From IMG/VR virus record IMGVR_UViG_2681813271_000008: a stretch of DNA of 33,148 nucleotides; one strand, written 5' to 3'. The notes under the pieces are model-generated. The model did no database searches. It was not told the DNA's origin and saw only the letters and a program-made list of their open reading frames with translations. Position numbers and translations under genes: made by a program. Positions within the stretch are counted from its first letter, which is position 1. Each line of letters opens with the position of its first letter. This stretch comes from a virus. Lineage: Duplodnaviria; Heunggongvirae; Uroviricota; Caudoviricetes. Positions 7,135 to 29,977 of this stretch are shown here, piece by piece.

Positions 7135-7454
7135 NNNNNNNNNNNNNNNNNNNNNNNNNNNNNNNNNNNNNNNNNNNNNNNNNNNNNNNNNNNNNNNNNN
7201 NNNNNNNNNNNNNNNNNNNNNNNNNNNNNNNNNNNNNNNNNNNNNNNNNNNNNNNNNNNNNNNNNNNNNNNNNNNNNNNNNNNNNNNNNNNNNNNNNNNN
7301 NNNNNNNNNNNNNNNNNNNNNNNNNNNNNNNNNNNNNNNNNNNNNNNNNNNNNNNNNNNNNNNNNNNNNNNNNNNNNNNNNNNNNNNNNNNNNNNNNNNN
7401 NNNNNNNNNNNNNNNNNNNNNNNNNNNNNNNNNNNNNNNNNNNNNNNNNNNNNN
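7135..7454. other. Assembly gap (320 N) inside the invertase locus
   Basis: Run of N read directly. Confidence 1.
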
Positions 7455-7612: not shown

Positions 7613-7792
7613 NNNNNNNNNNNACGTGCTGCGGCATAATCCCAATGATTACTCCCTGACAGGGTTCGTAGGCCACTCAATATCAGGTGCAGTTGATGTA
7701 TCAACACGGTTCAGCAACACCCGATACTTTTTCTAGGCTTCCACCACCAGCACGACAAGATGCCGCATACAGTGACCCAGTCAGTCCAGTTT

Positions 7793-9488: not shown

Positions 9489-9495
9489 NNNNNNN

Positions 9496-18019: not shown

Positions 18020-18093
18020 NNNNNNNNNNNNNNNNNNNNNNNNNNNNNNNNNNNNNNNNNNNNNNNNNNNNNNNNNNNNNNNNNNNNNNNNNN
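18020..18093. other. Assembly gap (74 N) between L and M
   Basis: Run of N read directly. Confidence 1.
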
Positions 18094-21031: not shown

Positions 21032-22849
21032 ATGATTCAGGACGCTTTTGTGCGCCAGCGTGCGCGGCAACTTTACTGGCAGGGTTATCCGCCCGCAGAA
21101 ATATCACGTCTGATGGGAATAAACCCGAACACGATTTATGCGTGGAAAAAACGCGACCAGTGGGATGAAACGCCACCCGTGCAGCGTGTCACGCAGTCCA
21201 TCGATGCGCGCCTCATCCAGCTTACTGAAAAACAGAATAAAACAGGTGGTGACTTTAAGGAAATAGANNNNNNNNNNNNNNNNNNNNNNNNNNNNNNNNN
21301 NNNNNNNNNNNNNNNNNNNNNNNNNNNNNNNNNNNNNNNNNNNNNNNNNNNNNNNNNNNNNNNNNNNNNNNNNNNNNNNNNNNNNNNNNNNNNNNNNNNN
21401 NNNNNNNNNNNNNNNNNNNNNNNNNNNNNNNNNNNNNNNNNNNNNNNNNNNNNNNNNNNNNNNNNNNNNNNNNNNNNNNNNNNNNNNNNNNNNNNNNNNN
21501 NNNNNNNNNNNNNNNNNNNNNNNNNNNNNNNNNNNNNNNNNNNNNNNNNNNNNNNNNNNNNNNNNNNNNNNNNNNNNNNNNNNNNNNNNNNNNNNNNNNN
21601 NNNNNNNNNNNNNNNNNNNNNNNNNNNNNNNNNNNNNNNNNNNNNNNNNNNNNNNNNNNNNNNNNNNNNNNNNNNNNNNNNNNNNNNNNNNNNNNNNNNN
21701 NNNNNNNNNNNNNNNNNNNNCGATGTGGAGCTGAAAGGGGGCGATAAAATCATCCTCTCCAACGGCGCAGAGATGCATTTTCTCGGCACTTCTGCTGCGA
21801 CGGCGCAATCTTACACGGGCAATTTTTATTTTGATGAATTTTTCTGGGTCAGTCGCTTTGCTGAACTGCGCAAGGTGGCTGGCGCTATGGCAACCCTCAG
21901 CGGACTGCGGCGCACCTGCTTCTCCACGCCATCCACCGAAACGCACGAGGCATACGCCTACTGGAACGGCGACCGCTGGAACGAGAAAAAGGCCGCGCAT
22001 AAACGCCAGCGTTTTTCTGTGGACTGGAAAACGCTGCATAACGGGCTTATCTGCCCTGACCGGACGTGGCGGCAAATTGTCACGCTGGAAGATGTGGTTA
22101 ATCACGGCTGGAAACACACCGATATTGATGAAATTCGTGATGAAAACACCGAAGACGAGTTCCGCAATCTCTATATGTGTGAGTTTGTCCGCGAAGGGGA
22201 ATCGGCATTTAACCTGAATATCCTGATTGGCTGCGGTGTTGACGGATACGACGACTGGAAAGACTGGAAACCCTTTGCCCCCCGCCCGATGGGGAATCGT
22301 CCGGTATGGATTGGGTATGACGCAAACGGCAGCAGTGGTAACGGCGACAGCGGCGCTGTGTCCGTGGTGGTTCCTCCGGCTGTTCCTGGTGGTCGTTTCA
22401 GAACGGTGGAGACGCGACGCGTTCAGGGGCTGGAATTTGAAGAGCAGGCCAGAGTTATTGAAGAGTTCACGTATCGCTACAACGTGGAACACATCGGCAT
22501 TGATGCGACGGGAGGGCACGGGGATGCCGTCTATCAGATAGTGAAACGGTTTTTTCCCGCCGCCATCCCTTACACCTTCACGCTGTCATCAAAACGGTCG
22601 CTGGTACTGAAAATGCTGCAAATAATGCGTGCCGGGCGGTGGGAATACGATCGCGCCGAACGCGAGCTGGTTGCGGCCTTTAACGCCGTGCGTAAGGTGA
22701 AAACACCGGGCGGTTTTATCACTTACGAAACGGACCGCGCGAGGGGGATCAGCCACGGCGACCTTGCGTGGGCAACCATGCTTGCTGTCATTAACGAACC
22801 GATTGGCGGCGAAGGAGAAAACGAGCGTTTCACGGTTATGGAGTTCTGA
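21032..22849 (+). CDS. P: Terminase large (ATPase) subunit P (P2 gpP-like), interrupted by a 453-N gap
   Basis: 605-codon frame open across the N-run; N-terminal and C-terminal parts present; divergent from O as in P2. Confidence 0.8.
   Translation: MIQDAFVRQRARQLYWQGYPPAEISRLMGINPNTIYAWKKRDQWDETPPVQRVTQSIDARLIQLTEKQNKTGGDFKEIXXXXXXXXXXXXXXXXXXXXXXXXXXXXXXXXXXXXXXXXXXXXXXXXXXXXXXXXXXXXXXXXXXXXXXXXXXXXXXXXXXXXXXXXXXXXXXXXXXXXXXXXXXXXXXXXXXXXXXXXXXXXXXXXXXXXXXXXXXXXXXXXXXXXXXXXDVELKGGDKIILSNGAEMHFLGTSAATAQSYTGNFYFDEFFWVSRFAELRKVAGAMATLSGLRRTCFSTPSTETHEAYAYWNGDRWNEKKAAHKRQRFSVDWKTLHNGLICPDRTWRQIVTLEDVVNHGWKHTDIDEIRDENTEDEFRNLYMCEFVREGESAFNLNILIGCGVDGYDDWKDWKPFAPRPMGNRPVWIGYDANGSSGNGDSGAVSVVVPPAVPGGRFRTVETRRVQGLEFEEQARVIEEFTYRYNVEHIGIDATGGHGDAVYQIVKRFFPAAIPYTFTLSSKRSLVLKMLQIMRAGRWEYDRAERELVAAFNAVRKVKTPGGFITYETDRARGISHGDLAWATMLAVINEPIGGEGENERFTVMEF
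21268..21720. other. Assembly gap (453 N) inside terminase P
   Basis: Run of N read directly. Confidence 1.
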
Positions 22850-23895
22850 TGAGCAGAAAAAATAAAAAAGTGCGCATGAGTTCACGCATTGATCTCGCTG
22901 ATGCGCTCAGGAAAGAATCGTCGCTCAGTGCATTCACATTTGATGGTCCTTACCGCCTGACCGGGCATGACCTGCTGGACAATATGTACTGTGCTGATAA
23001 CGGGCGGTGGTATGAAACCCCGGTGGACTGGTACGGTCTGGCAAGAGCTGCCCGGCAAACGTCCTGGCATCAGTCTGCGCTTTACTTTAAGCGCAATGTA
23101 TTGCTCGGCTGCTATATTCCGCACCCGCTGCTTTCCCGGCAGGATTTCTCGGCGCTGGCGCTGGACTGGTTTGTGTTCGGTAACGCATTCCTTGAGCTTC
23201 GGAGCAATATGCTCGGCGAACCGCTTAAATTACGGCACGCCCTGGCGAAATACATGCGACGCGGAAGCGATCTTGAATCATGGTGGTATGTGCAGGATGG
23301 CAAGGATGCGTTTCAGTTTCGTCCTGGCAAAGTGTGCCACCTGATGAATCCGGATATTAACCAGGAAATCTACGGCATGCCGGAATATCTTGGCGCATTA
23401 CTCTCGGCCAGCCTTTCTCATTCGGCGGACATGTTCAGAAAACTGTACTACGACAACGGATCCCACGCCGGGTGCATCATCTACATCGGTGCAGCGCAGG
23501 TAAACCGCGAAAGCATGGACTCCCTGAAAGAAACGCTACAGGGGGCACGTGGTGGTGGTGCGTTTAAAAACGTGCTCATTCATGCGCCCAACGGGGGCAA
23601 AGAGGGGGTGCAAATTTTGCCGTTCCAGCAGATCACCGCAAAGGATGAGTTCATGAATGTTAAGGCGGCATCCCGTGATGATGTGCTGGCTGCGCACCGC
23701 GTTCCGCCGCAACTGATGGGGGCGATGCCGGGCGAAAAAAGTGCGTTTGGTGATGTGGAGAAGGCCGCGCGGGTTTACGCAATTAACGAGCTGATGCCCG
23801 TCATGGAGGCCATGAAGCACATCAATGACTGGCTTGGCGAAGAGGTGATCCGCTTTAACCCTTACGCACTGTTAGACACCCAGCCCACATCCTGA
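22849..23895 (+). CDS. Q: Portal protein Q (P2 gpQ-like)
   Basis: 348 aa ORF overlapping the end of P; size matches P2 Q. Confidence 0.85.
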   Translation: MSRKNKKVRMSSRIDLADALRKESSLSAFTFDGPYRLTGHDLLDNMYCADNGRWYETPVDWYGLARAARQTSWHQSALYFKRNVLLGCYIPHPLLSRQDFSALALDWFVFGNAFLELRSNMLGEPLKLRHALAKYMRRGSDLESWWYVQDGKDAFQFRPGKVCHLMNPDINQEIYGMPEYLGALLSASLSHSADMFRKLYYDNGSHAGCIIYIGAAQVNRESMDSLKETLQGARGGGAFKNVLIHAPNGGKEGVQILPFQQITAKDEFMNVKAASRDDVLAAHRVPPQLMGAMPGEKSAFGDVEKAARVYAINELMPVMEAMKHINDWLGEEVIRFNPYALLDTQPTS

Positions 23896-24386: not shown

Positions 24387-24572
24387 CTACCACTCGATCG
24401 GCACGTAGTCATTAAGTTCCGGAGACCAATTGCACTTTTCACATCTGTGTTTTCCATTCTGGCAGATACATAAACGATAACGGCCACAATGCGGGCACCC
24501 ATTTTCACCATTATCATAATCACCGAGCGACCATTCCTGCATAAGCAGCTCTTCTTCATCATCATTTAGCAT
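24387..24572 (-). CDS. Hypothetical small Cys-rich protein (61 aa, possible zinc ribbon)
   Basis: Strong RBS AGGGGG 5 nt upstream of the ATG; acidic N-terminus, then C-x2-C-x5-C-x-C-x6-C-x2-C. Confidence 0.5.
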   Translation of the reverse strand: MLNDDEEELLMQEWSLGDYDNGENGCPHCGRYRLCICQNGKHRCEKCNWSPELNDYVPIEW

Positions 24573-24586
24573 TAATCCCCCTTGAG

Positions 24587-24826
24587 CTATTTACTCTTCT
24601 CGGCCCTCAAAATCATACGAGAACCATCATCCAGCTCCCAATTAATTTCACCGCCTTCTGCCATGACTAGATGCCAAACGAGTTGAGCGGCCTCGTTGGT
24701 TACATCGCGACCGCGATCATTTCCTACGCGGCGTTTTGTTCCGTCTCCTAAGTCACGCATTTTTGCCAATACGATGGTTTTTGATAGCGGTGAAAAACCA
24801 AGCTGTAGTCGTGCTGAATTACTCAC
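24587..24826 (-). CDS. Hypothetical protein (79 aa)
   Basis: ORF whose start overlaps the stop of the upstream 174-aa ORF by 4 nt; 14 bp ahead of the 61-aa gene. Confidence 0.5.
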   Translation of the reverse strand: MSNSARLQLGFSPLSKTIVLAKMRDLGDGTKRRVGNDRGRDVTNEAAQLVWHLVMAEGGEINWELDDGSRMILRAEKSK

Positions 24827-25347
24827 TGGCTGCCCCCTTTGTACTGTGTTAACTCTTCCTGCTCCTGCATCATGCGATTGACCTGAACGCGTGTGCGTCG
24901 AACGGCAAAATTAAATTGAAACATGAGCCGGAACATTTCTGATGCTTCCGTGTGAGCATCACGGATAGGTGACAGGCGGTACAGTTCTGCCTCCGTAGCT
25001 TGTTGAATCAATGACAGATCAAATTGAAGTGCGGGTCTGGTACATTTTGCACATCTGGCAGCAAGCTCCGGTATTAGTCTCTTAACGAAGGTGTTTTGCA
25101 CCGCTTTGTTGATTTGTGTCTGCATCCAAATCGCAAATTTCAGCGAACGCATAAGTTTGATAGCCTCGGGCAGCGGCAGATAGATCATGCTGGTAGATTT
25201 GGGTGGTTGGTGAACCATCTTCACGGATACGCGATTTCGCAGCGTTCGGAAAATCGTGTTCCCAACAACAGCTTCTACGGATACAGGACAGGGAGCCAGA
25301 CCAGCCCGCAGTGCTTCTTTCATTAGCATGTATTCGTATTTTTTCAT
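24823..25347 (-). CDS. Hypothetical protein (174 aa)
   Basis: ATG preceded by GAGGAA, 60 bp downstream of parR; no family recognised. Confidence 0.55.
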   Translation of the reverse strand: MKKYEYMLMKEALRAGLAPCPVSVEAVVGNTIFRTLRNRVSVKMVHQPPKSTSMIYLPLPEAIKLMRSLKFAIWMQTQINKAVQNTFVKRLIPELAARCAKCTRPALQFDLSLIQQATEAELYRLSPIRDAHTEASEMFRLMFQFNFAVRRTRVQVNRMMQEQEELTQYKGGSQ

Positions 25348-25407
25348 CGTGTTTTCCTCGTGCGGGGCGACAGTGCACCCCGATAAAATTAAAAGCCGTC
25401 AAATTCG

Positions 25408-25719
25408 TCATTCAGGAAATAATGCCCGGATATTCCCTGCTATCTGACTGGTTATCTGTGCGGTTGGTACTGGCTGTGGCACGGGGCGTTCTGTCCTGGT
25501 TTGTGTCACCGATAACGCCTCATCGTCAGCCCATGCAGCCAGTCGGTAAGCCTCTGCTGGATTCATTTTCAGAAGTGCCAGCCCGGCCAGAAAAGCCACG
25601 CGTTGGCCGCTTTTGCGGGCTTCTGGTGTAAGGCTGCCCAGCCAGGCGCATGCTTCGCTTTCGTTCTTGACGGCCGCAGGCTTCAGATAGAAACTTATCC
25701 GTCTGGTTGGTGTCGTCAT
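25408..25719 (-). CDS. parR: ParR-like partition adaptor (DNA-binding)
   Basis: Start ATG 25717..25719 after AGGAG, 5 nt beyond the parM stop; RRISFYLKPAAV...SGQRVAFLAGLALL resembles my recollection of R1 ParR (RRTIAFKLNPDV...NRAALTAGLALY). The longer track ORF overlaps parM. Confidence 0.65.
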   Translation of the reverse strand: MTTPTRRISFYLKPAAVKNESEACAWLGSLTPEARKSGQRVAFLAGLALLKMNPAEAYRLAAWADDEALSVTQTRTERPVPQPVPTAQITSQIAGNIRALFPE

Positions 25720-25723
25720 TGGT

Positions 25724-26683
25724 TTACTCCTTGTCCATTGCGTACAGCCCATTAACCAGAGCAAACTGTGGCACCCCGTCCGCGATGAAAGTCGCATTAA
25801 CTCCGCAGGCTTCGCGGATAGCGGGTGCCACAATCTCCGCCCCTCCACCGACAACCATCACCCGCCCGTAACCCGAAAAACCCGCCAGCGCGCGGATCAC
25901 GCGTTGTTTCAGTGTTTCTTCCTTTTCACGAATAACCGCCATCAGGCTGGCGTAATGCGCGTCATTGTGGATGTGCTGGCGCAGCCAGGCTTCATCATGG
26001 CGATGTTCGATAATGGTATTGGCGATGTGGTGACTGGTGCGCATACCGTTAGTGGCCATCACCGACAGTACGGCATCGGCCATCAGAGAAACGCCTACGT
26101 GTGGATCGCAAAACACCTGGCTGATACCTGCCAGTTGCCCCTGAACCTTTGCCACATCCAGCGTGGTTCCGCCCAAATCCACAATCAGCAGGGATTCAAA
26201 CGGACTCATGTCAGCCAGTGCCTTAAAGCCAGCCGGAATGGATTCAGGCATAACCCGCACGTTACGGATAGTGAATGCTTCGCCGTTCTGGTACTCCACC
26301 GGGCGCATAACGTTCGCTTTTTTGCGGTTGATGTTGGCCATGTCCGGCTGTGCGTTTGTGTCGAAATACTCGCTCAGTGGCAGGGTGACAACCACATCCA
26401 CCTCCTGTGGCGTGATGCCTGATTTGACCAGCGCGTGATGAATGGCAATGACATTTACATCGCTGTACTGGTATTGCGTGTCGGTTGTCTGGACAAAGCG
26501 ATCGCTGACCGGATCAAAACCATAGCGCACGCCATCAAGCATGTAGTTCGCGGGCTGCATGCCACCGAACGGCGCAGACCATTCCGACTTGAAGCTGTTC
26601 GGGCTGATGGCGTTGCGGCGTTCGCCGTTCTCAGTCCATGCCAGCTTGATGTTGGTGGAGCCGTCGTCGATACAAATTTTCAT
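25724..26683 (-). CDS. parM: ParM/StbA-like actin-type partition ATPase
   Basis: 319 aa; actin-fold motifs IDDGSTNIKL, LIVDLGGTTLD, VMVVGGGAEIV and RKKANVM; collinear with my recollection of plasmid R1 ParM along the whole length. Confidence 0.85.
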   Translation of the reverse strand: MKICIDDGSTNIKLAWTENGERRNAISPNSFKSEWSAPFGGMQPANYMLDGVRYGFDPVSDRFVQTTDTQYQYSDVNVIAIHHALVKSGITPQEVDVVVTLPLSEYFDTNAQPDMANINRKKANVMRPVEYQNGEAFTIRNVRVMPESIPAGFKALADMSPFESLLIVDLGGTTLDVAKVQGQLAGISQVFCDPHVGVSLMADAVLSVMATNGMRTSHHIANTIIEHRHDEAWLRQHIHNDAHYASLMAVIREKEETLKQRVIRALAGFSGYGRVMVVGGGAEIVAPAIREACGVNATFIADGVPQFALVNGLYAMDKE

Positions 26684-26705
26684 GTCGCTTTTCCTTATGT
26701 TGATT

Positions 26706-26827
26706 AATTAATCGTTTACGGGATTCTGAAATCCCGTTTTTGCCTGTTTTGTGCGCGCTTCATATATCGCTGCGCGTTTTTTGCTCATTTACGGGATTCG
26801 TGAGTCCCGTTTCTGTCTGTTTTTTGT
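26706..26827. repeat. Two copies of a roughly 42-bp repeat, each with a palindrome ACGGGATT-n4-AATCCCGT, upstream of parM (candidate operator / parC-like region)
   Basis: Palindromes at 26712..26731 and 26791..26810, 79 bp apart; the first overlaps a -35-like TTCAGA of the putative parM promoter on the minus strand. Confidence 0.6.
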
Positions 26828-26959
26828 TTCCACTGGTCAGGCCACCCCGCAGCAGGTCTGCTTTGCGGCGGGCGCGTTCAGTGGTTTCACTGATTCTCTG
26901 TGCGTGCTCTGCGTCGCGGATGGCGCGCAGCATGTCAGAAAGCACGGTAACGGGTGTTT

Positions 26960-29605
26960 TCATGGTGTTCTGGTCCTGCTGAAGTGTGGATGCCAGGCGT
27001 GCGGCGGCTTCANNNNNNNNNNNNNNGCGGCTTCAGGGTCTGATGCCCCCAGCTGTGTCAGATAGCTGGCGACCGGGTTATGGCGGATCTCCGTGCTGCT
27101 TACGCCATGATTACGGCTCAGGCGCTGCCAGAGCTGCGTGATTCGGCTGTCCGGGCGGGTATCCGGTTTGCGTACAATTTCAAATCCCTGCGGTGCAATG
27201 ATGCTGCCGTCAACGTACAGACTGCCGCCCCGTAACAGGTGCTGCATCTGTTGTTCACCGATATGCAGGCCGAGAGATTCAGCAGACTCCCGCCATTCTT
27301 TAGCGAGTAATTCGTGGTTATCAGGCAAAGGCCGCTGCTGTTTGCGGCTCTGTGTCCAGCTCTGCATTTCATCACTGCTGTTTTTTGCCTGTTTGTCACG
27401 AAGCGAACGCATCAGCGCCCGGCGTTCGTGCCGTTTCAGTGAGCGCATCCATTCATCCACATCAACGCCGTCAGGGAGCTGCGGCCACGGTGCTGGCCGT
27501 TCTTCCGGCTGTTCTGTCCCGTTGTTGTCCGTTTCCTGTACACGGGGACAGTTATTGCCACGAGTCCAAGGGGCGGCAGGGCCGCCCTGAAGGTCAAAAC
27601 CATTTTCGCGGGCGCTGTCTTCCGCTTCCGGTTTGCGTCTTACCAGCTTCCAGTTATCCGGATGCGTGCACACACGGGAGGATTCCCCGATGAGTGGTGA
27701 CCAGATCCCGTAAATCTGTACGCTCTGTTCGCCGTAATCGTTCAGCTCATCGGCGAGGTCGTAGGCGGTGCGAATCAGGTAGTCTTTGCGTGGAACAAGT
27801 ACGCCGCCCTGTTTCTCTATGTAGGTGGCAAAACATCCGGCATCAGCGGCGGCAAGAACCGCATCCATTGCGTCATCCTTCAGCCGTTGCGGGCCTTCCG
27901 GGTTGCGTGCCATCTGGCTGGCAAGGCGGCGCAGTTCACGCCATACCTGGCGGGAGGGGATGCCAAAGAACTGGAACTGGCGGACCCGGTGAAGGCGCGC
28001 CCAGCCGATGGCGCGTTCCACGCTCTCGGCCATTGATTTTCCGGTTTCGTGGTCAACGCGTGGCTTGCCCGTTTTCGGGTCGATGCCATCCACGGCGCGG
28101 CTGTCCAGGTTTTTCCCGATGTAGGTGGCGATGTAGCTGGTTGGCGTGCCTTTTGAGCCGTCTACATACTCCGCCTTAAAGCGCGGAGTTATGTCATCGC
28201 CCAGCTCGTGACGATCTTCCTGAATGGCAATATCGCGGGTGTGGGACACAATGGTGTCGATTTCTTCCGGATGAGCAAAGACCATCATATGCCAGTGCAC
28301 GGTGCCGTCATGGTGAGGCTCCGCCGTGCGGATGCCATACCAGCGCAGGCCGTCGCGGTTCAGTTTTTTGCGGACCGTCGCAAAAAACGTGTTAACCAGG
28401 TAATCGCTGGAGTCGCGCATTGTGGCCCCGTTCCATTTGGGATTCGGATGACCGTTCTCCGTTGTGGCGTGGTATTTTGACGGGCAGGTGACAGTCAGAA
28501 ACACCGCTTTGTCGCCACGGGCTTCGGCCAGAAGTTCCAGCCCCTTCATGGTGGCCATCATTTCTGCCTTACGGTGAACCGGGTTACTTACTCCCGCGTA
28601 ATACACCGTCTCGAGATCAATCGTGAACCCGTCTTCATTTTCCAGCATGAAACTTTTCAGGAAATCGCGTGTTTTCTCGCGCTGTGCGCGAAACTCGCTT
28701 AACGCGTCCTGGCTCAGATAGGGCGATGTTTTTCTGGAAACCAGACAGGCGGCGCGAAGTTGTTCTTCTCTCCACTCGCAACGTAACAGCCACAGTTTGC
28801 GTTTCCACCATTCCGCACAGGTCAGGCGAAGGATTGCGCCCGGCAGCAGTTCTGTGTCCGGTTCGTGCCTCCGGTCTTTGTCTGTTGTCAGTGCGTCATA
28901 ATGCGGAGGCATGGCGTGTAAGTGTAACGCCATGCGGGCCAGCATCTGATACGCCTTCAGCGTTACATCCATGGTCAGCTCGCCATCAGTCGCGCCAAAA
29001 CCATCGCAGAGTTTTTCGAAGGTGCTGCTGAACATCGCCGCCGTCATGGTGGCCAGCGTCTGTATCTGGTGTTTGTTGAGTTGCGGCAGGTAAAGCAAAT
29101 CGTCCAGGCGTTCACGTCCGGCAAGGGAGCGATAACCCGGTGTCAGCCAGTGTCCGTCAGTGCGATCCAGACGTTCGAATATTTTGCGCAGGGTTCCGCG
29201 TGCATAGCGTTCCGCCTGCCAGCTCTTTTTGCCTTTCCGGCGATCGGCTTCCTGTTTTTTGCGCAGGAAGGAGAGGTGGCGAATAAGCGGATCGCGCAGA
29301 TAGGACGGCAGCAGGCGCAGCGAGGCCATGGCTTCATCCACCGCGCCGCGTGCCTGTTTTCTGGCGTCTCCTGCCAGTGTGATGGTTTTGTCCTGTTTTT
29401 CCTGTGCGTCCAGGCTTTTATTAATCAGGTTGCCCAGTGGCGTGGCGGAGAACGCCGCATCAGCCATTTCCTGGCGGCGCTCGTTCTCTGCCCGGTGGGC
29501 ATCCAGCCAGGAGGAAAGCGCGGATTCAGGAGCGGGGATCCCCGTTCCTTCACGCCCCACTGCGTGGCGCGGTTGTTGCCAGTCCCTGATGTACTCTGCC
29601 GTCAT
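26960..29605 (-). CDS. A: Replication initiation protein A (rolling-circle, HUH endonuclease; P2 gpA-like)
   Basis: 881-codon frame; HUH-type motif in GTVHWHMMVF and tyrosine motif TSYIATYIGKN; a 14-N run lies near the 3' end, so the C-terminus is uncertain. Confidence 0.8.
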   Translation of the reverse strand: MTAEYIRDWQQPRHAVGREGTGIPAPESALSSWLDAHRAENERRQEMADAAFSATPLGNLINKSLDAQEKQDKTITLAGDARKQARGAVDEAMASLRLLPSYLRDPLIRHLSFLRKKQEADRRKGKKSWQAERYARGTLRKIFERLDRTDGHWLTPGYRSLAGRERLDDLLYLPQLNKHQIQTLATMTAAMFSSTFEKLCDGFGATDGELTMDVTLKAYQMLARMALHLHAMPPHYDALTTDKDRRHEPDTELLPGAILRLTCAEWWKRKLWLLRCEWREEQLRAACLVSRKTSPYLSQDALSEFRAQREKTRDFLKSFMLENEDGFTIDLETVYYAGVSNPVHRKAEMMATMKGLELLAEARGDKAVFLTVTCPSKYHATTENGHPNPKWNGATMRDSSDYLVNTFFATVRKKLNRDGLRWYGIRTAEPHHDGTVHWHMMVFAHPEEIDTIVSHTRDIAIQEDRHELGDDITPRFKAEYVDGSKGTPTSYIATYIGKNLDSRAVDGIDPKTGKPRVDHETGKSMAESVERAIGWARLHRVRQFQFFGIPSRQVWRELRRLASQMARNPEGPQRLKDDAMDAVLAAADAGCFATYIEKQGGVLVPRKDYLIRTAYDLADELNDYGEQSVQIYGIWSPLIGESSRVCTHPDNWKLVRRKPEAEDSARENGFDLQGGPAAPWTRGNNCPRVQETDNNGTEQPEERPAPWPQLPDGVDVDEWMRSLKRHERRALMRSLRDKQAKNSSDEMQSWTQSRKQQRPLPDNHELLAKEWRESAESLGLHIGEQQMQHLLRGGSLYVDGSIIAPQGFEIVRKPDTRPDSRITQLWQRLSRNHGVSSTEIRHNPVASYLTQLGASDPEAXXXXXXKPPHAWHPHFSRTRTP
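27013..27026. other. Assembly gap (14 N) near the 3' end of A
   Basis: Run of N; the same 9-mer GCGGCTTCA flanks both sides, suggesting overlapping contig ends. Confidence 1.
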
Positions 29606-29611
29606 AGTGAT

Positions 29612-29977
29612 TTACTTCGTCATGCCATTCAGGGTGTCGCGGCAGACTGTAGCCAGCCGCTGAATTTCCAGCACGGTGTCTTCTGTGTCGGCATGGCGAT
29701 GTGTGATGCGGATGCTGTCGGCAATCACATCGACGATTGCAGAGGATGGGCGCTGGTAAATGCCAATAACGGACGGGGTGCCACCTTCAATGCGGTAAAG
29801 CCTGTAATTTCCCTCGTGGCTGTCAATCATGTAGCGACCATCAATAACAATCTTTCCGTCAGCGAGCTGCGGTACAGGCAGGGATTTCAGGTACATGTCA
29901 TAACGATCACGCACGCGAGCGGCAAGATCACGCTCTGTGTTGAGCAGGTATTCAAGAAAGTCGTTGGCGAGAATCAT
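29612..29977 (-). CDS. Hypothetical early-operon protein (121 aa)
   Basis: ORF immediately upstream of A on the same strand. Confidence 0.5.
   Translation of the reverse strand: MILANDFLEYLLNTERDLAARVRDRYDMYLKSLPVPQLADGKIVIDGRYMIDSHEGNYRLYRIEGGTPSVIGIYQRPSSAIVDVIADSIRITHRHADTEDTVLEIQRLATVCRDTLNGMTK

What the first reader, a model, noticed from the sequence alone, without database searches (positions are those of the whole stretch)
26706..26827. Paired palindrome-bearing repeats upstream of parM that also fold as plus-strand hairpins with T-runs
Two copies of ACGGGATT-n4-(A/G)ATCCCGT lie 79 bp apart, each followed by a T-rich tract. They could be ParR operator or centromere sites, or tandem terminators blocking antisense transcription into gene A. 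The second copy overlaps a 67-aa ORF (26760..26963) whose start is coupled to the A stop, so it is unclear whether that region is coding.
Basis: seen in the sequence. Interest (0 to 1): 0.4.

Follow-up and report, generated by a model that had tools for sequence, protein, structure and literature searches.

The report
Two-site parC-like element before prophage parM
Two matching palindromes just upstream of an actin-like partition operon (parM-parR) in a P2-family E. coli prophage are most likely the DNA sites where the ParR adaptor protein binds; they are not terminators or a replication origin, and the 67-codon ORF over one of them is an assembly artefact.

Summary
The repeats are real. A 42-nt unit occurs twice (26712-26753 and 26785-26826, 81% identical). 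Each unit carries a 20-bp palindrome (26718-26737, 26791-26810). The start-to-start spacing is 73 bp, not 79.

The window is a P88-like (Xuanwuvirus, P2 family) prophage. On the minus strand the gene order is replication gene A, parM, parR.

The 67-aa ORF is not a gene. It is the C-terminal tail of gpA, cut off by an assembly gap (14 N plus a duplicated 9-mer, 27013-27035). The distal repeat therefore lies in the last ~22 codons of A, and the proximal one lies in the 76-nt A-parM spacer.

Four prophage lineages were compared (E. coli, two Hafnia, Plesiomonas; ParM 100-62% identical).
- Flanking DNA is unalignable between the distant lineages.
- The upstream gene, reading frame and hairpin strength all differ.
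- Exactly two GGG-N10-CCC sites persist at about -125 and -52 from the parM ATG, 72-73 bp apart.
- The ParR ribbon-helix-helix strand (TRRISFYL) is conserved with them.
- None of 31 plasmid-type parM loci has such a site.

Best reading: a bipartite, palindromic parC-like ParR site (confidence ~0.6; binding untested). The plus-strand terminator look is specific to the E. coli and closely related Hafnia lineage. The P2-type ori nick site lies about 770 bp away.

The parts
26785..26826 (-). Distal 42-nt repeat unit. It lies inside the last ~22 codons of gene A. It contains the 20-bp palindrome 26791-26810 and the core GGG-N10-CCC at 26793-26808 (-125 from the parM ATG).
26712..26753 (-). Proximal 42-nt repeat unit, in the A-parM intergenic spacer. 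It contains the perfect 20-bp palindrome 26718-26737 and the core GGG-N10-CCC at 26720-26735 (-52 from the parM ATG).
26754..26784 (-). 31-nt spacer between the two units. It holds the true stop codon of gene A (26760-26762) and a GC-rich imperfect inverted repeat (CGCGC...GCGCG).
26702..26713 (.). Perfect 12-bp palindrome GATTAATTAATC between the proximal site and the ribosome-binding site. Its ATTAAT core is conserved in all four lineages that carry the paired sites. Possible weak -10 element or an extra protein site (unresolved).
25724..26683 (-). parM, an actin-like segregation ATPase of 319 aa. Shine-Dalgarno AAGGAA at 26691-26696.
   Evidence: StbA_N E 3e-82, ParM C-terminal domain E 1e-68
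25408..25719 (-). parR, 103 aa, Plasmid_stab_B family. N-terminal ribbon-helix-helix strand TRRISFYLKP. Conserved C-terminal tail NIRALFPE.
   Evidence: (profile hits pB171 ParR, PDB 2JD3, E 7e-13)
26760..29605 (-). Gene A (P2-family replication endonuclease). It appears as 881-aa and 67-aa ORFs only because of the gap artefact. Its 3' end overlaps the distal site.
27013..27035 (.). Assembly artefact: a 14-N run plus a duplicated GCGGCTTCA. These 23 extra bases frameshift gene A.
27548..27596 (-). Homologue of the P2 ori nick region (GCGGCCCTGCCGCCCCTTGGACTCGTGGCAATAACTGT; predicted nick near 27567). It is included only to show that the origin is elsewhere.

Best explanation
The two palindrome-bearing repeats are the cis-acting site of the prophage's type II (ParMRC-like) partition cassette. 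They form a bipartite parC-like element made of two GGG-N10-CCC sites, extended in this lineage to ACGGGATT-N4-AATCCCGT. The sites are 73 bp apart, about seven helical turns, so they face the same side of the DNA.

Inferred mechanism:
- Each 16-20-bp site is bound by ParR through its N-terminal ribbon-helix-helix beta-strand (TRRISFYL), probably as a dimer of dimers.
- The two occupied sites, separated by A-tract-rich DNA, fold into a small partition complex.
- The conserved ParR C-terminal tail (NIRALFPE) couples that complex to ParM filaments.
- The filaments then move or position circular, excised or replicating, phage DNA.
- The same binding may damp par expression.

Shown here: the sites, their statistical reality, their tight association with parMR across genera, nucleotide-level (not protein- or hairpin-level) conservation, and the family membership of ParM and ParR.

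Inferred, not shown: ParR binding, its stoichiometry, complex formation, regulation, and the biological role in an integrating phage.
For: (1) Position. The sites lie directly upstream of parM, where parC lies in R1-type loci. ParM and ParR are intact family members.

(2) Deep conservation of the sites but not their surroundings. Lineages compared: E. coli, Hafnia1, Hafnia2 and Plesiomonas prophages, with ParM 100, 94, 62 and 62% identical.
- There are exactly two GGG-N10-CCC sites in each, at -125/-52, -124/-51, -128/-55 and -131/-59.
- Spacings are 73, 73, 73 and 72 bp.
- Flanking DNA is unalignable between the distant lineages. The background rate of the motif is 0.27 per kb.

(3) The sites follow parMR, not gene A. 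In Hafnia2 a non-homologous 167-aa ORF lies directly upstream. The distal site sits in three different reading frames, inside unrelated protein tails.

(4) Specificity. Among loci with ParM at least ~88% identical, 156 have both sites and 52 have the distal site with a one-base variant of the proximal one. Among 31 plasmid-type parM loci (45-55% identical), which carry classic iteron parC sites instead, none has the motif within 200 nt upstream.

(5) Match with the DNA-reading part of ParR.
- The beta-strand TRR(I/V)SFYL is shared by the four lineages with the sites.
- It is invariant in 135 distinct E. coli-type loci, even where the C-terminal half of ParR drops to 54% identity.
- Serratia and Enterobacter prophage ParR (NRKISFYL) and plasmid ParRs (other strands) go with different site architectures.

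(6) No Rfam family matches the region.
Against: - No binding data exist.
- There are only two sites, whereas characterised parC centromeres have 4-10 or more iterons (established knowledge; compare L006).
- Within the E. coli population the palindromes are no more conserved than their flanks. About a quarter of loci carry CCC to CCT in the proximal site.
- No consensus promoter is embedded in or next to the sites, so the autoregulatory operator role typical of parC is unsupported.
- The co-variation between ParR strand and site type rests on few independent lineages.
- The function of a partition system in an integrating P2-like phage is unknown.
Confidence: 0.6

Rival explanations
1. The repeats are tandem Rho-independent terminators on the + strand. 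They would stop antisense or read-through transcription (for example from the late P-Q operon across cos) before it enters gene A. This could be the sole function or a second function of the same DNA.
For: - Both sites are called terminator-like: 8-bp stems, 4-nt loops, -10.2 kcal/mol, and 8 T in the next 12 nt.
- The same shape is present in Hafnia1.
- The scan finds no + strand terminator-like site between the end of Q (23895) and the par genes, so read-through from the late operon is conceivable.
Against: - No + strand gene ends near here; the nearest, Q, ends 2.8 kb upstream.
- In Hafnia2 and Plesiomonas the sites keep position and spacing, but only 3-4-bp stems remain, with 2-5 T of 12 downstream.
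- Stem changes in the population are single transitions with no compensatory pairs. Both copies and all lineages keep the same GGG/CCC letters, which a hairpin alone does not require.
Confidence: 0.15
2. The sites bind a protein other than ParR, for example gpA as an accessory origin element, a phage regulator (C, Cox, Ogr) or a host nucleoid protein.
For: - The distal site lies inside gene A, and P2-family origins lie inside A.
- The palindromic geometry fits many dimeric DNA-binding proteins.
- ParR binding is untested.
Against: - The homologue of the P2 nick region lies at 27548-27596, about 770 bp away.
- P2, which lacks parMR, has no such pair at the end of A.
- In Hafnia2 the sites sit behind a different gene yet remain directly before parM.
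- No other copy of the palindrome occurs elsewhere in the prophage, for instance at regulatory regions.
Confidence: 0.1
3. The element has no selected function. It would be a local 42-nt duplication, or a recombination scar at the boundary of the par cassette, that hitch-hikes with parMR.
For: - Within-population diversity in the palindromes equals that of the flanks.
- A common haplotype breaks the proximal CCC.
- The region is a known mosaic hotspot, with variable cargo and a mosaic parR.
Against: A neutral scar would not keep two GGG-N10-CCC sites at the same positions and spacing in lineages whose surrounding DNA, upstream gene and reading frame have all changed.
Confidence: 0.1
4. The element acts as an RNA hairpin on the par-sense (minus) strand, affecting stability, processing or translation of an A-parM transcript.
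For: The hairpins also form in the minus-strand RNA (-8.7 and -10.7 kcal/mol). Some variants (A to G at position 1, C to T at position 18) keep G-U pairing on that strand.
Against: Other variants favour the opposite strand, so there is no consistent strand signal. The hairpins are lost in Hafnia2 and Plesiomonas. There is no Rfam match.
Confidence: 0.05

Closest known systems
parC of the R1/pB171 type II (ParMRC) plasmid partition loci
   Same: - The cis site lies immediately upstream of parM, and the gene order is parM then parR.
- ParM is actin-like (StbA_N and ParM domains).
- ParR is a Plasmid_stab_B ribbon-helix-helix protein homologous to pB171 ParR (2JD3), with the conserved C-terminal tail.
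- The layout is bipartite, two repeat blocks with a spacer, recalling the 5+5 iteron layout of R1 parC (seen in L006).
   Different: - There are only two units, each an inverted repeat (GGG-N10-CCC), 73 bp apart. R1-type sites have arrays of 10 or more direct 6-11-bp iterons.
- No recognisable promoter lies between or within the units.
- The distal unit lies inside the coding end of the upstream gene.
- The host replicon is an integrating P2-family prophage, not a low-copy plasmid.
- ParM is only about 47-52% identical to the plasmid proteins.
AlpA/AlpC/alpS of the Corynebacterium glutamicum prophage CGP3 (PMC4446434, PMC5539076)
   Same: An integrated prophage encodes an actin-like filament protein and a DNA-binding adaptor. 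The adaptor binds repeats in the promoter-proximal region of its own operon. The proposed role is to move or position excised phage DNA, and loss of either protein roughly halves phage copy number.
   Different: The actin-like family is different and the gene order is reversed (adaptor first). alpS consists of 24 short TTAAnnG repeats. The host is Gram-positive. The proteins show no sequence relationship to the ones here.
StbA/StbB partition locus of plasmid-prophage D6 (P1-like), annotated as similar to P88 StbA
   Same: ParM is 48% identical, the parM-parR order is the same, and repeats lie upstream of parM.
   Different: D6 is a true plasmid prophage. Its upstream repeats are about 11-bp (A/T)TTCTCAAA-type iterons, and its ParR beta-strand differs (RKKVMIYL). 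It has no GGG-N10-CCC sites.
Intrinsic (Rho-independent) terminators
   Same: In this window each site is a GC-containing 8-bp hairpin followed by a T-run on the + strand.
   Different: There is no transcription unit to terminate on that strand. The hairpin and T-run are not conserved where the sites are. Sequence is conserved, rather than pairing.

Membership tests
Type II (ParMRC) partition locus: parC centromere/operator | The cis site lies directly upstream of parM in a parM-parR operon | tested here: met
   The sites are at -125 and -52 from the parM ATG, and parR follows parM.
Type II (ParMRC) partition locus: parC centromere/operator | Actin-like ParM ATPase present and intact | tested here: met
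   Pfam StbA_N E 3e-82 and ParM C-terminal domain E 1e-68, both full length.
Type II (ParMRC) partition locus: parC centromere/operator | ParR adaptor with an N-terminal ribbon-helix-helix fold and a C-terminal ParM-binding tail | tested here: met
   Pfam Plasmid_stab_B E 5e-23. The profile matches pB171 ParR, PDB 2JD3, at E 7e-13. The tail N-I-x-x-L-F-P is conserved. The fold itself was not modelled.
Type II (ParMRC) partition locus: parC centromere/operator | Array of multiple (typically 4-10 or more) direct iterons bound cooperatively by ParR | tested here: not met
   Only two units are present, and each is an inverted repeat. No further copies or half-site enrichment were found. Plasmid relatives show iteron arrays. 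The element is therefore filed as a variant, not a canonical parC.
Type II (ParMRC) partition locus: parC centromere/operator | par promoter embedded in the site and autorepressed by ParR | tested here: inconclusive
   No consensus sigma-70 promoter is found upstream of parM in any of six lineages. A conserved ATTAAT lies at about -25. Transcription was not measured.
Type II (ParMRC) partition locus: parC centromere/operator | The site co-varies with the ParR DNA-binding specificity | tested here: inconclusive
   TRR(I/V)SFYL goes with GGG-N10-CCC in four lineages. NRKISFYL and the plasmid strands go with other sites. Independent lineages are few.
Type II (ParMRC) partition locus: parC centromere/operator | ParR binds the site, and the site confers ParMR-dependent stabilisation in cis | not testable with these tools
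   Requires EMSA or footprinting and plasmid stability assays.
Rho-independent terminator (+ strand) | Stable GC-containing hairpin followed at once by a U-tract | tested here: met
   8-bp stems, -10.2 kcal/mol, 8 T of 12. This holds in this window and Hafnia1 only.
Rho-independent terminator (+ strand) | Lies at the 3' end of a transcription unit on that strand | tested here: not met
   All genes from 24387 to 29605 are on the minus strand. The nearest + strand gene ends at 23895.
Rho-independent terminator (+ strand) | Pairing, rather than sequence, is maintained among relatives | tested here: not met
   There are no compensatory changes. Stems and T-runs are lost in Hafnia2 and Plesiomonas while the GGG/CCC letters and spacing persist.
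P2-family origin of replication (gpA nick site) | Sequence homologous to the P2 nick region GCGCC/TCGGAGTCCTGTCAATAACTGT inside gene A | tested here: not met
   The homologue lies at 27548-27596 and encodes GGPAAPWTRGNNC. It is about 770 bp from the repeats.

The most novel reading that the evidence does not exclude
A very common family of integrating P2-like prophages uses a minimal two-site palindromic centromere with ParM and ParR to actively position or segregate its excised or replicating circular genome. The family carries this region in 1371 of 5426 complete E. coli genomes, and parMR cassettes occupy the same hotspot in Hafnia, Plesiomonas, Serratia and Enterobacter. The system could act during lytic growth or in a transient episomal carrier state. 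The centromere is written partly into the coding end of the essential replication gene.
Probability: 0.3. Interest if true: 0.6.

Novelty: new variant of a known kind. Interest (0 to 1): 0.4.

Why it matters
If ParR binds these sites, they define a much simpler centromere than the iteron arrays of R1, pB171 or pSK41: two inverted-repeat sites seven helical turns apart. That gives a compact test case for how few ParR contacts suffice to capture a ParM filament.

It also gives a concrete way to ask why an integrating phage found in about a quarter of sequenced E. coli genomes keeps a plasmid-type segregation machine. Mutating the two sites is a clean cis-acting knock-out that leaves parM and parR intact, apart from the last codons of gene A.

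Practically, the result corrects the annotation here. The 67-aa ORF is not a gene, and gene A is intact.

Tried and rejected
- Origin of replication at the repeats. Rejected, because the homologue of the P2 nick region is at 27548-27596.
- Independent 67-aa gene. Rejected, because it is an N-gap frameshift artefact.
- Known RNA family. No Rfam match at E up to 1.
- Similar palindromes upstream of plasmid parM genes (IncL/M, IncF, IncK, R1-like) and phage D6. None found, only iteron arrays.
- More diverged lineages.
  - The genome-contig scan gave only 3 near-identical loci.
  - Two IMG/VR scans and the metagenome scan were swamped by P88-like copies.
  - The ParR search from Plesiomonas found only itself.
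  - The contig for ParR P0031 (62% identical) starts inside parM, so its upstream region is missing.
- Population-level footprinting within E. coli. It gave no extra conservation of the palindromes, and site variants do not correlate with ParR variants.
- Compensatory-change test for a hairpin. Only single transitions were seen, favouring neither strand.
- Consensus promoter search on the par strand in six lineages. Nothing was conserved.
- Literature. The searches found no paper on a P88 or P2-like parMR cis site. Liu and Haggard-Ljungquist 1994 on the P2 nick site is not held in the library, so the nick position was taken from the NC_001895 annotation.

Full report
**Context.** The window is a P2-family prophage of the P88 type (genus Xuanwuvirus).
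- The 1.6 kb around the finding is 95-99% identical to 14 phage records, including Escherichia phage P88.
- A 413-nt query across the finding matches 1371 of 5426 complete E. coli genomes, almost always on the chromosome.
- The minus strand carries, in order: replication gene A (Pfam Phage_GPA, E 6e-131); parM (StbA_N E 3e-82, ParM C-terminal domain E 1e-68); parR (Plasmid_stab_B, E 5e-23); and three small cargo genes. The cos region and the portal and terminase genes follow.

**Checking the observation.** The repeats are real.
- A 42-nt unit occurs at 26712-26753 and 26785-26826, 81% identical.
- Each unit carries a 20-bp palindrome: 26718-26737 (perfect 8+8 arms with a 4-nt centre) and 26791-26810 (one mismatch).
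- The palindrome pattern with up to three mismatches occurs nowhere else in the 33 kb. The chance expectation is 0.16, and no shuffle gave two hits.
- The single half-site is not enriched elsewhere.
- The start-to-start spacing is 73 bp, not 79.
- On the + strand both palindromes are followed by T-rich tracts and are called terminator-like by the consensus scan.

**The 67-aa ORF is not a gene.**
- It matches the last 67 positions of the gpA family profile (phrog_6857 positions 789-855 of 855, E 4e-42).
- Compared with a finished O104:H4 chromosome, the window has 23 extra bases: a 14-N run at 27013-27026 and a second copy of the flanking 9-mer GCGGCTTCA at 27027-27035.
- This is an assembly-gap artefact, and it shifts the frame.
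- Removing it restores one 940-aa gpA with a single stop at 26760-26762, 98.2% identical to P88 gpA.
- RefSeq and the P88 record end gene A at this position, 76 nt before parM.
- So the distal repeat lies in the last ~22 codons of A, and the proximal repeat lies in the A-parM spacer.

**Is it the origin?** P2-family origins lie inside gene A, so this was tested.
- The P2 record marks the nick at 29892.
- That region (GCGGCATCGCCGCGCC/TCGGAGTCCTGTCAATAACTGT, encoding SGIAAPRSPVNNC) aligns to window 27548-27596 on the minus strand (GCGGCCCTGCCGCCCCTTGGACTCGTGGCAATAACTGT, encoding GGPAAPWTRGNNC).
- The origin nick is therefore about 770 bp from the repeats.
- P2, which has no parMR, has no comparable site pair at the end of A.

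**Comparative evidence.**
- Plasmid ParM relatives are only about 47-52% identical (IncL/M, IncF, IncK, R1-like), as is ParM of plasmid-prophage D6. Their upstream regions show classic iteron arrays flanking a promoter, and none has this palindrome.
- Searches of the protein collection with ParR and ParM found parMR cassettes in the same place, between gene A and the ogr/portal genes, in P2-like prophages of other genera:
  - Hafnia1 (ParM 94% identical)
  - Hafnia2 (62%)
  - Plesiomonas (62%)
  - Serratia (58%)
  - Enterobacter (54%)
- In E. coli, Hafnia1, Hafnia2 and Plesiomonas there are exactly two GGG-N10-CCC sites upstream of parM. They lie at -125/-52, -124/-51, -128/-55 and -131/-59, with spacings of 73, 73, 73 and 72 bp.
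- The surrounding DNA of the distant lineages cannot be aligned, and the motif's background rate is 0.27 per kb.
- In Hafnia2 the gene directly upstream is a 167-aa ORF unrelated to A.
- The distal site sits in three different reading frames: ACG GGA in E. coli, CGG GAT TCA TGA in Hafnia1, and GGG ATT in Hafnia2. It lies inside non-homologous protein tails.
- The constraint is therefore on the DNA letters, not on a protein.
- Across all fetched loci:

| ParM identity to the window | Loci | GGG-N10-CCC sites within 200 nt upstream |
|---|---|---|
| at least ~88% | 156 | both sites |
| at least ~88% | 52 | distal site only; proximal site has CCC to CCT |
| 45-55% (plasmid type) | 31 | none |

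**Hairpin or protein site?**
- In E. coli and Hafnia1 the sites fold well on either strand (-7 to -10.7 kcal/mol). On the + strand they are followed by 8-9 T in 12 nt.
- In Hafnia2 and Plesiomonas only the GGG/CCC triplets can pair (3-4-bp stems with 10-nt loops), and only 2-5 T follow.
- Within the E. coli population, changes in the arms are single transitions. Some would keep G-U pairing on one strand and some on the other, and none are compensatory.
- Conserved letters, conserved spacing and unconserved pairing fit a protein-binding site, not a terminator or a structured RNA.
- No Rfam family matches.

**Link to ParR.**
- A profile of these ParR proteins matches the solved pB171 ParR (PDB 2JD3) at E 7e-13. 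From the published description, which was not re-checked here, that protein is a ribbon-helix-helix dimer.
- By that homology, the N-terminal strand is the DNA-reading element.
- The strand is TRRISFYLKP in the window. It is TRR(I/V)SFYL in all four lineages with GGG-N10-CCC sites.
- It is invariant in 135 distinct E. coli-type loci, even where recombination has replaced the C-terminal half of ParR (54-83% overall identity).
- Serratia and Enterobacter prophages have NRKISFYL and a different layout: GGGAAC-GAAATAGAAAAAT with inverted partners 45-60 nt away. They still share the 17-mer AACAGGCAAAAACGGGA.
- Plasmid ParRs have other strands and iteron sites.
- The C-terminal tail N-I-R-A-L-F-P-E is conserved across the family. 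In R1 this tail is the ParM-binding peptide; that is established knowledge, not tested here.

**Most likely mechanism (inferred).**
- Each 16-20-bp site binds ParR, probably as two ribbon-helix-helix dimers on GGG and CCC half-sites in neighbouring major grooves.
- The two sites are seven helical turns apart on the same face and are separated by A-tract-rich DNA. Together they would form a small partition complex.
- That complex would present ParR tails to ParM filaments.
- This is a bipartite layout like R1 parC (5 iterons, spacer, 5 iterons), reduced to 1 + 1 palindromes.
- The DNA being moved would be the excised or replicating circular phage genome. The AlpA/AlpC/alpS system of the integrated prophage CGP3 is a precedent (PMC4446434).

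**Weak points.**
- Binding is untested.
- Two sites are far fewer than in any characterised parC.
- Population diversity in the palindromes equals that of the flanks, and a common haplotype weakens the proximal site.
- No consensus sigma-70 promoter lies upstream of parM in any lineage. parMR may be co-transcribed with A from the early promoter, and the operator role is unsupported. A conserved ATTAAT inside a 12-bp palindrome GATTAATTAATC (26702-26713) is the only promoter-like feature.
- A lineage-specific terminator role on the + strand cannot be excluded. The scan finds no other + strand terminator-like site between the end of the late gene Q and this point.

**Verdict.**
The terminator idea is not the conserved function.
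- The element is best described as a new variant of a known kind: a palindromic, two-site, partly intragenic parC-like element of prophage-borne ParMR cassettes.
- My literature searches found no description of it.
- Interest is moderate.

Noticed in passing
window 7135-7454, 7613-7623, 9489-9495, 18020-18093, 21268-21720, 27013-27026: There are six N-runs in the window. The one at 27013-27026 is flanked by a duplicated 9-mer (GCGGCTTCA) and adds 23 bases relative to finished genomes, which falsely splits gene A. ORFs next to the other runs may be similarly distorted.
   Followed up: partly
window 27548-27596 (minus strand): Clear homologue of the P2 origin nick region inside gene A. It encodes GGPAAPWTRGNNC, and the predicted nick is near 27567.
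   Followed up: yes
window 25408-25719; proteins P0019-P0060; loci L093-L103: parR is mosaic in E. coli prophages. The N-terminal ~45 residues are nearly invariant, while the middle and C-terminal part falls to 54% identity. The cargo genes downstream differ between loci (167-aa ORF, 351-aa ORF plus ASCH, Rrf2, IS fragments). This suggests a recombination breakpoint inside parR at the edge of the variable hotspot.
   Followed up: partly
L104 (Plesiomonas), L105 (Serratia), L106/L107 (Enterobacter), L096/L097 and L108/L109 (Hafnia): parMR cassettes occupy the same A-to-ogr/portal hotspot in P2-like prophages of several genera. They sit alongside typical hotspot cargo: HicAB, a KAP NTPase and methyltransferases. 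Why integrating phages keep a partition system is unexplained.
   Followed up: partly
L105 -133..-24 and L106 -128..-22 relative to the parM ATG: Serratia and Enterobacter cassettes have a different cis layout: GGGAAC-GAAATAGAAAAAT with inverted partners 45-60 nt away, plus a third ATGACCC copy. They still share the exact 17-mer AACAGGCAAAAACGGGA with the E. coli proximal unit. Their ParR strand is NRKISFYL.
   Followed up: partly
window 26702-26713: Perfect 12-bp palindrome GATTAATTAATC between the proximal site and the parM ribosome-binding site. Its ATTAAT core is conserved in all four lineages with the paired sites. Function unknown (weak -10 element, or another protein site).
   Followed up: partly
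window 24387-25347 (minus strand): Three small cargo genes follow parR: a 174-aa ORF with no family, a 79-aa DUF7446 protein (phrog_1578) and a 61-aa Cys-rich zinc-ribbon-like protein (phrog_24897). All are of unknown function.
   Followed up: no
L008 (Salmonella IncHI2 plasmid NZ_CP110658.1); L010 (contig labelled Vagococcus sp. WN89Y): A whole P88-like prophage segment (A, parM, parR, portal, terminase) sits on a 272-kb IncHI2 plasmid. A ParM 98% identical to the window's occurs on a contig labelled as Vagococcus, a Firmicute, which may be contamination or mislabelling.
   Followed up: no
L100/L101 4309-4437: In some E. coli loci a 42-aa ORF with a weak StbA_N match follows parR. It looks like a leftover fragment of a second parM, and so a trace of past cassette recombination.
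   Followed up: no
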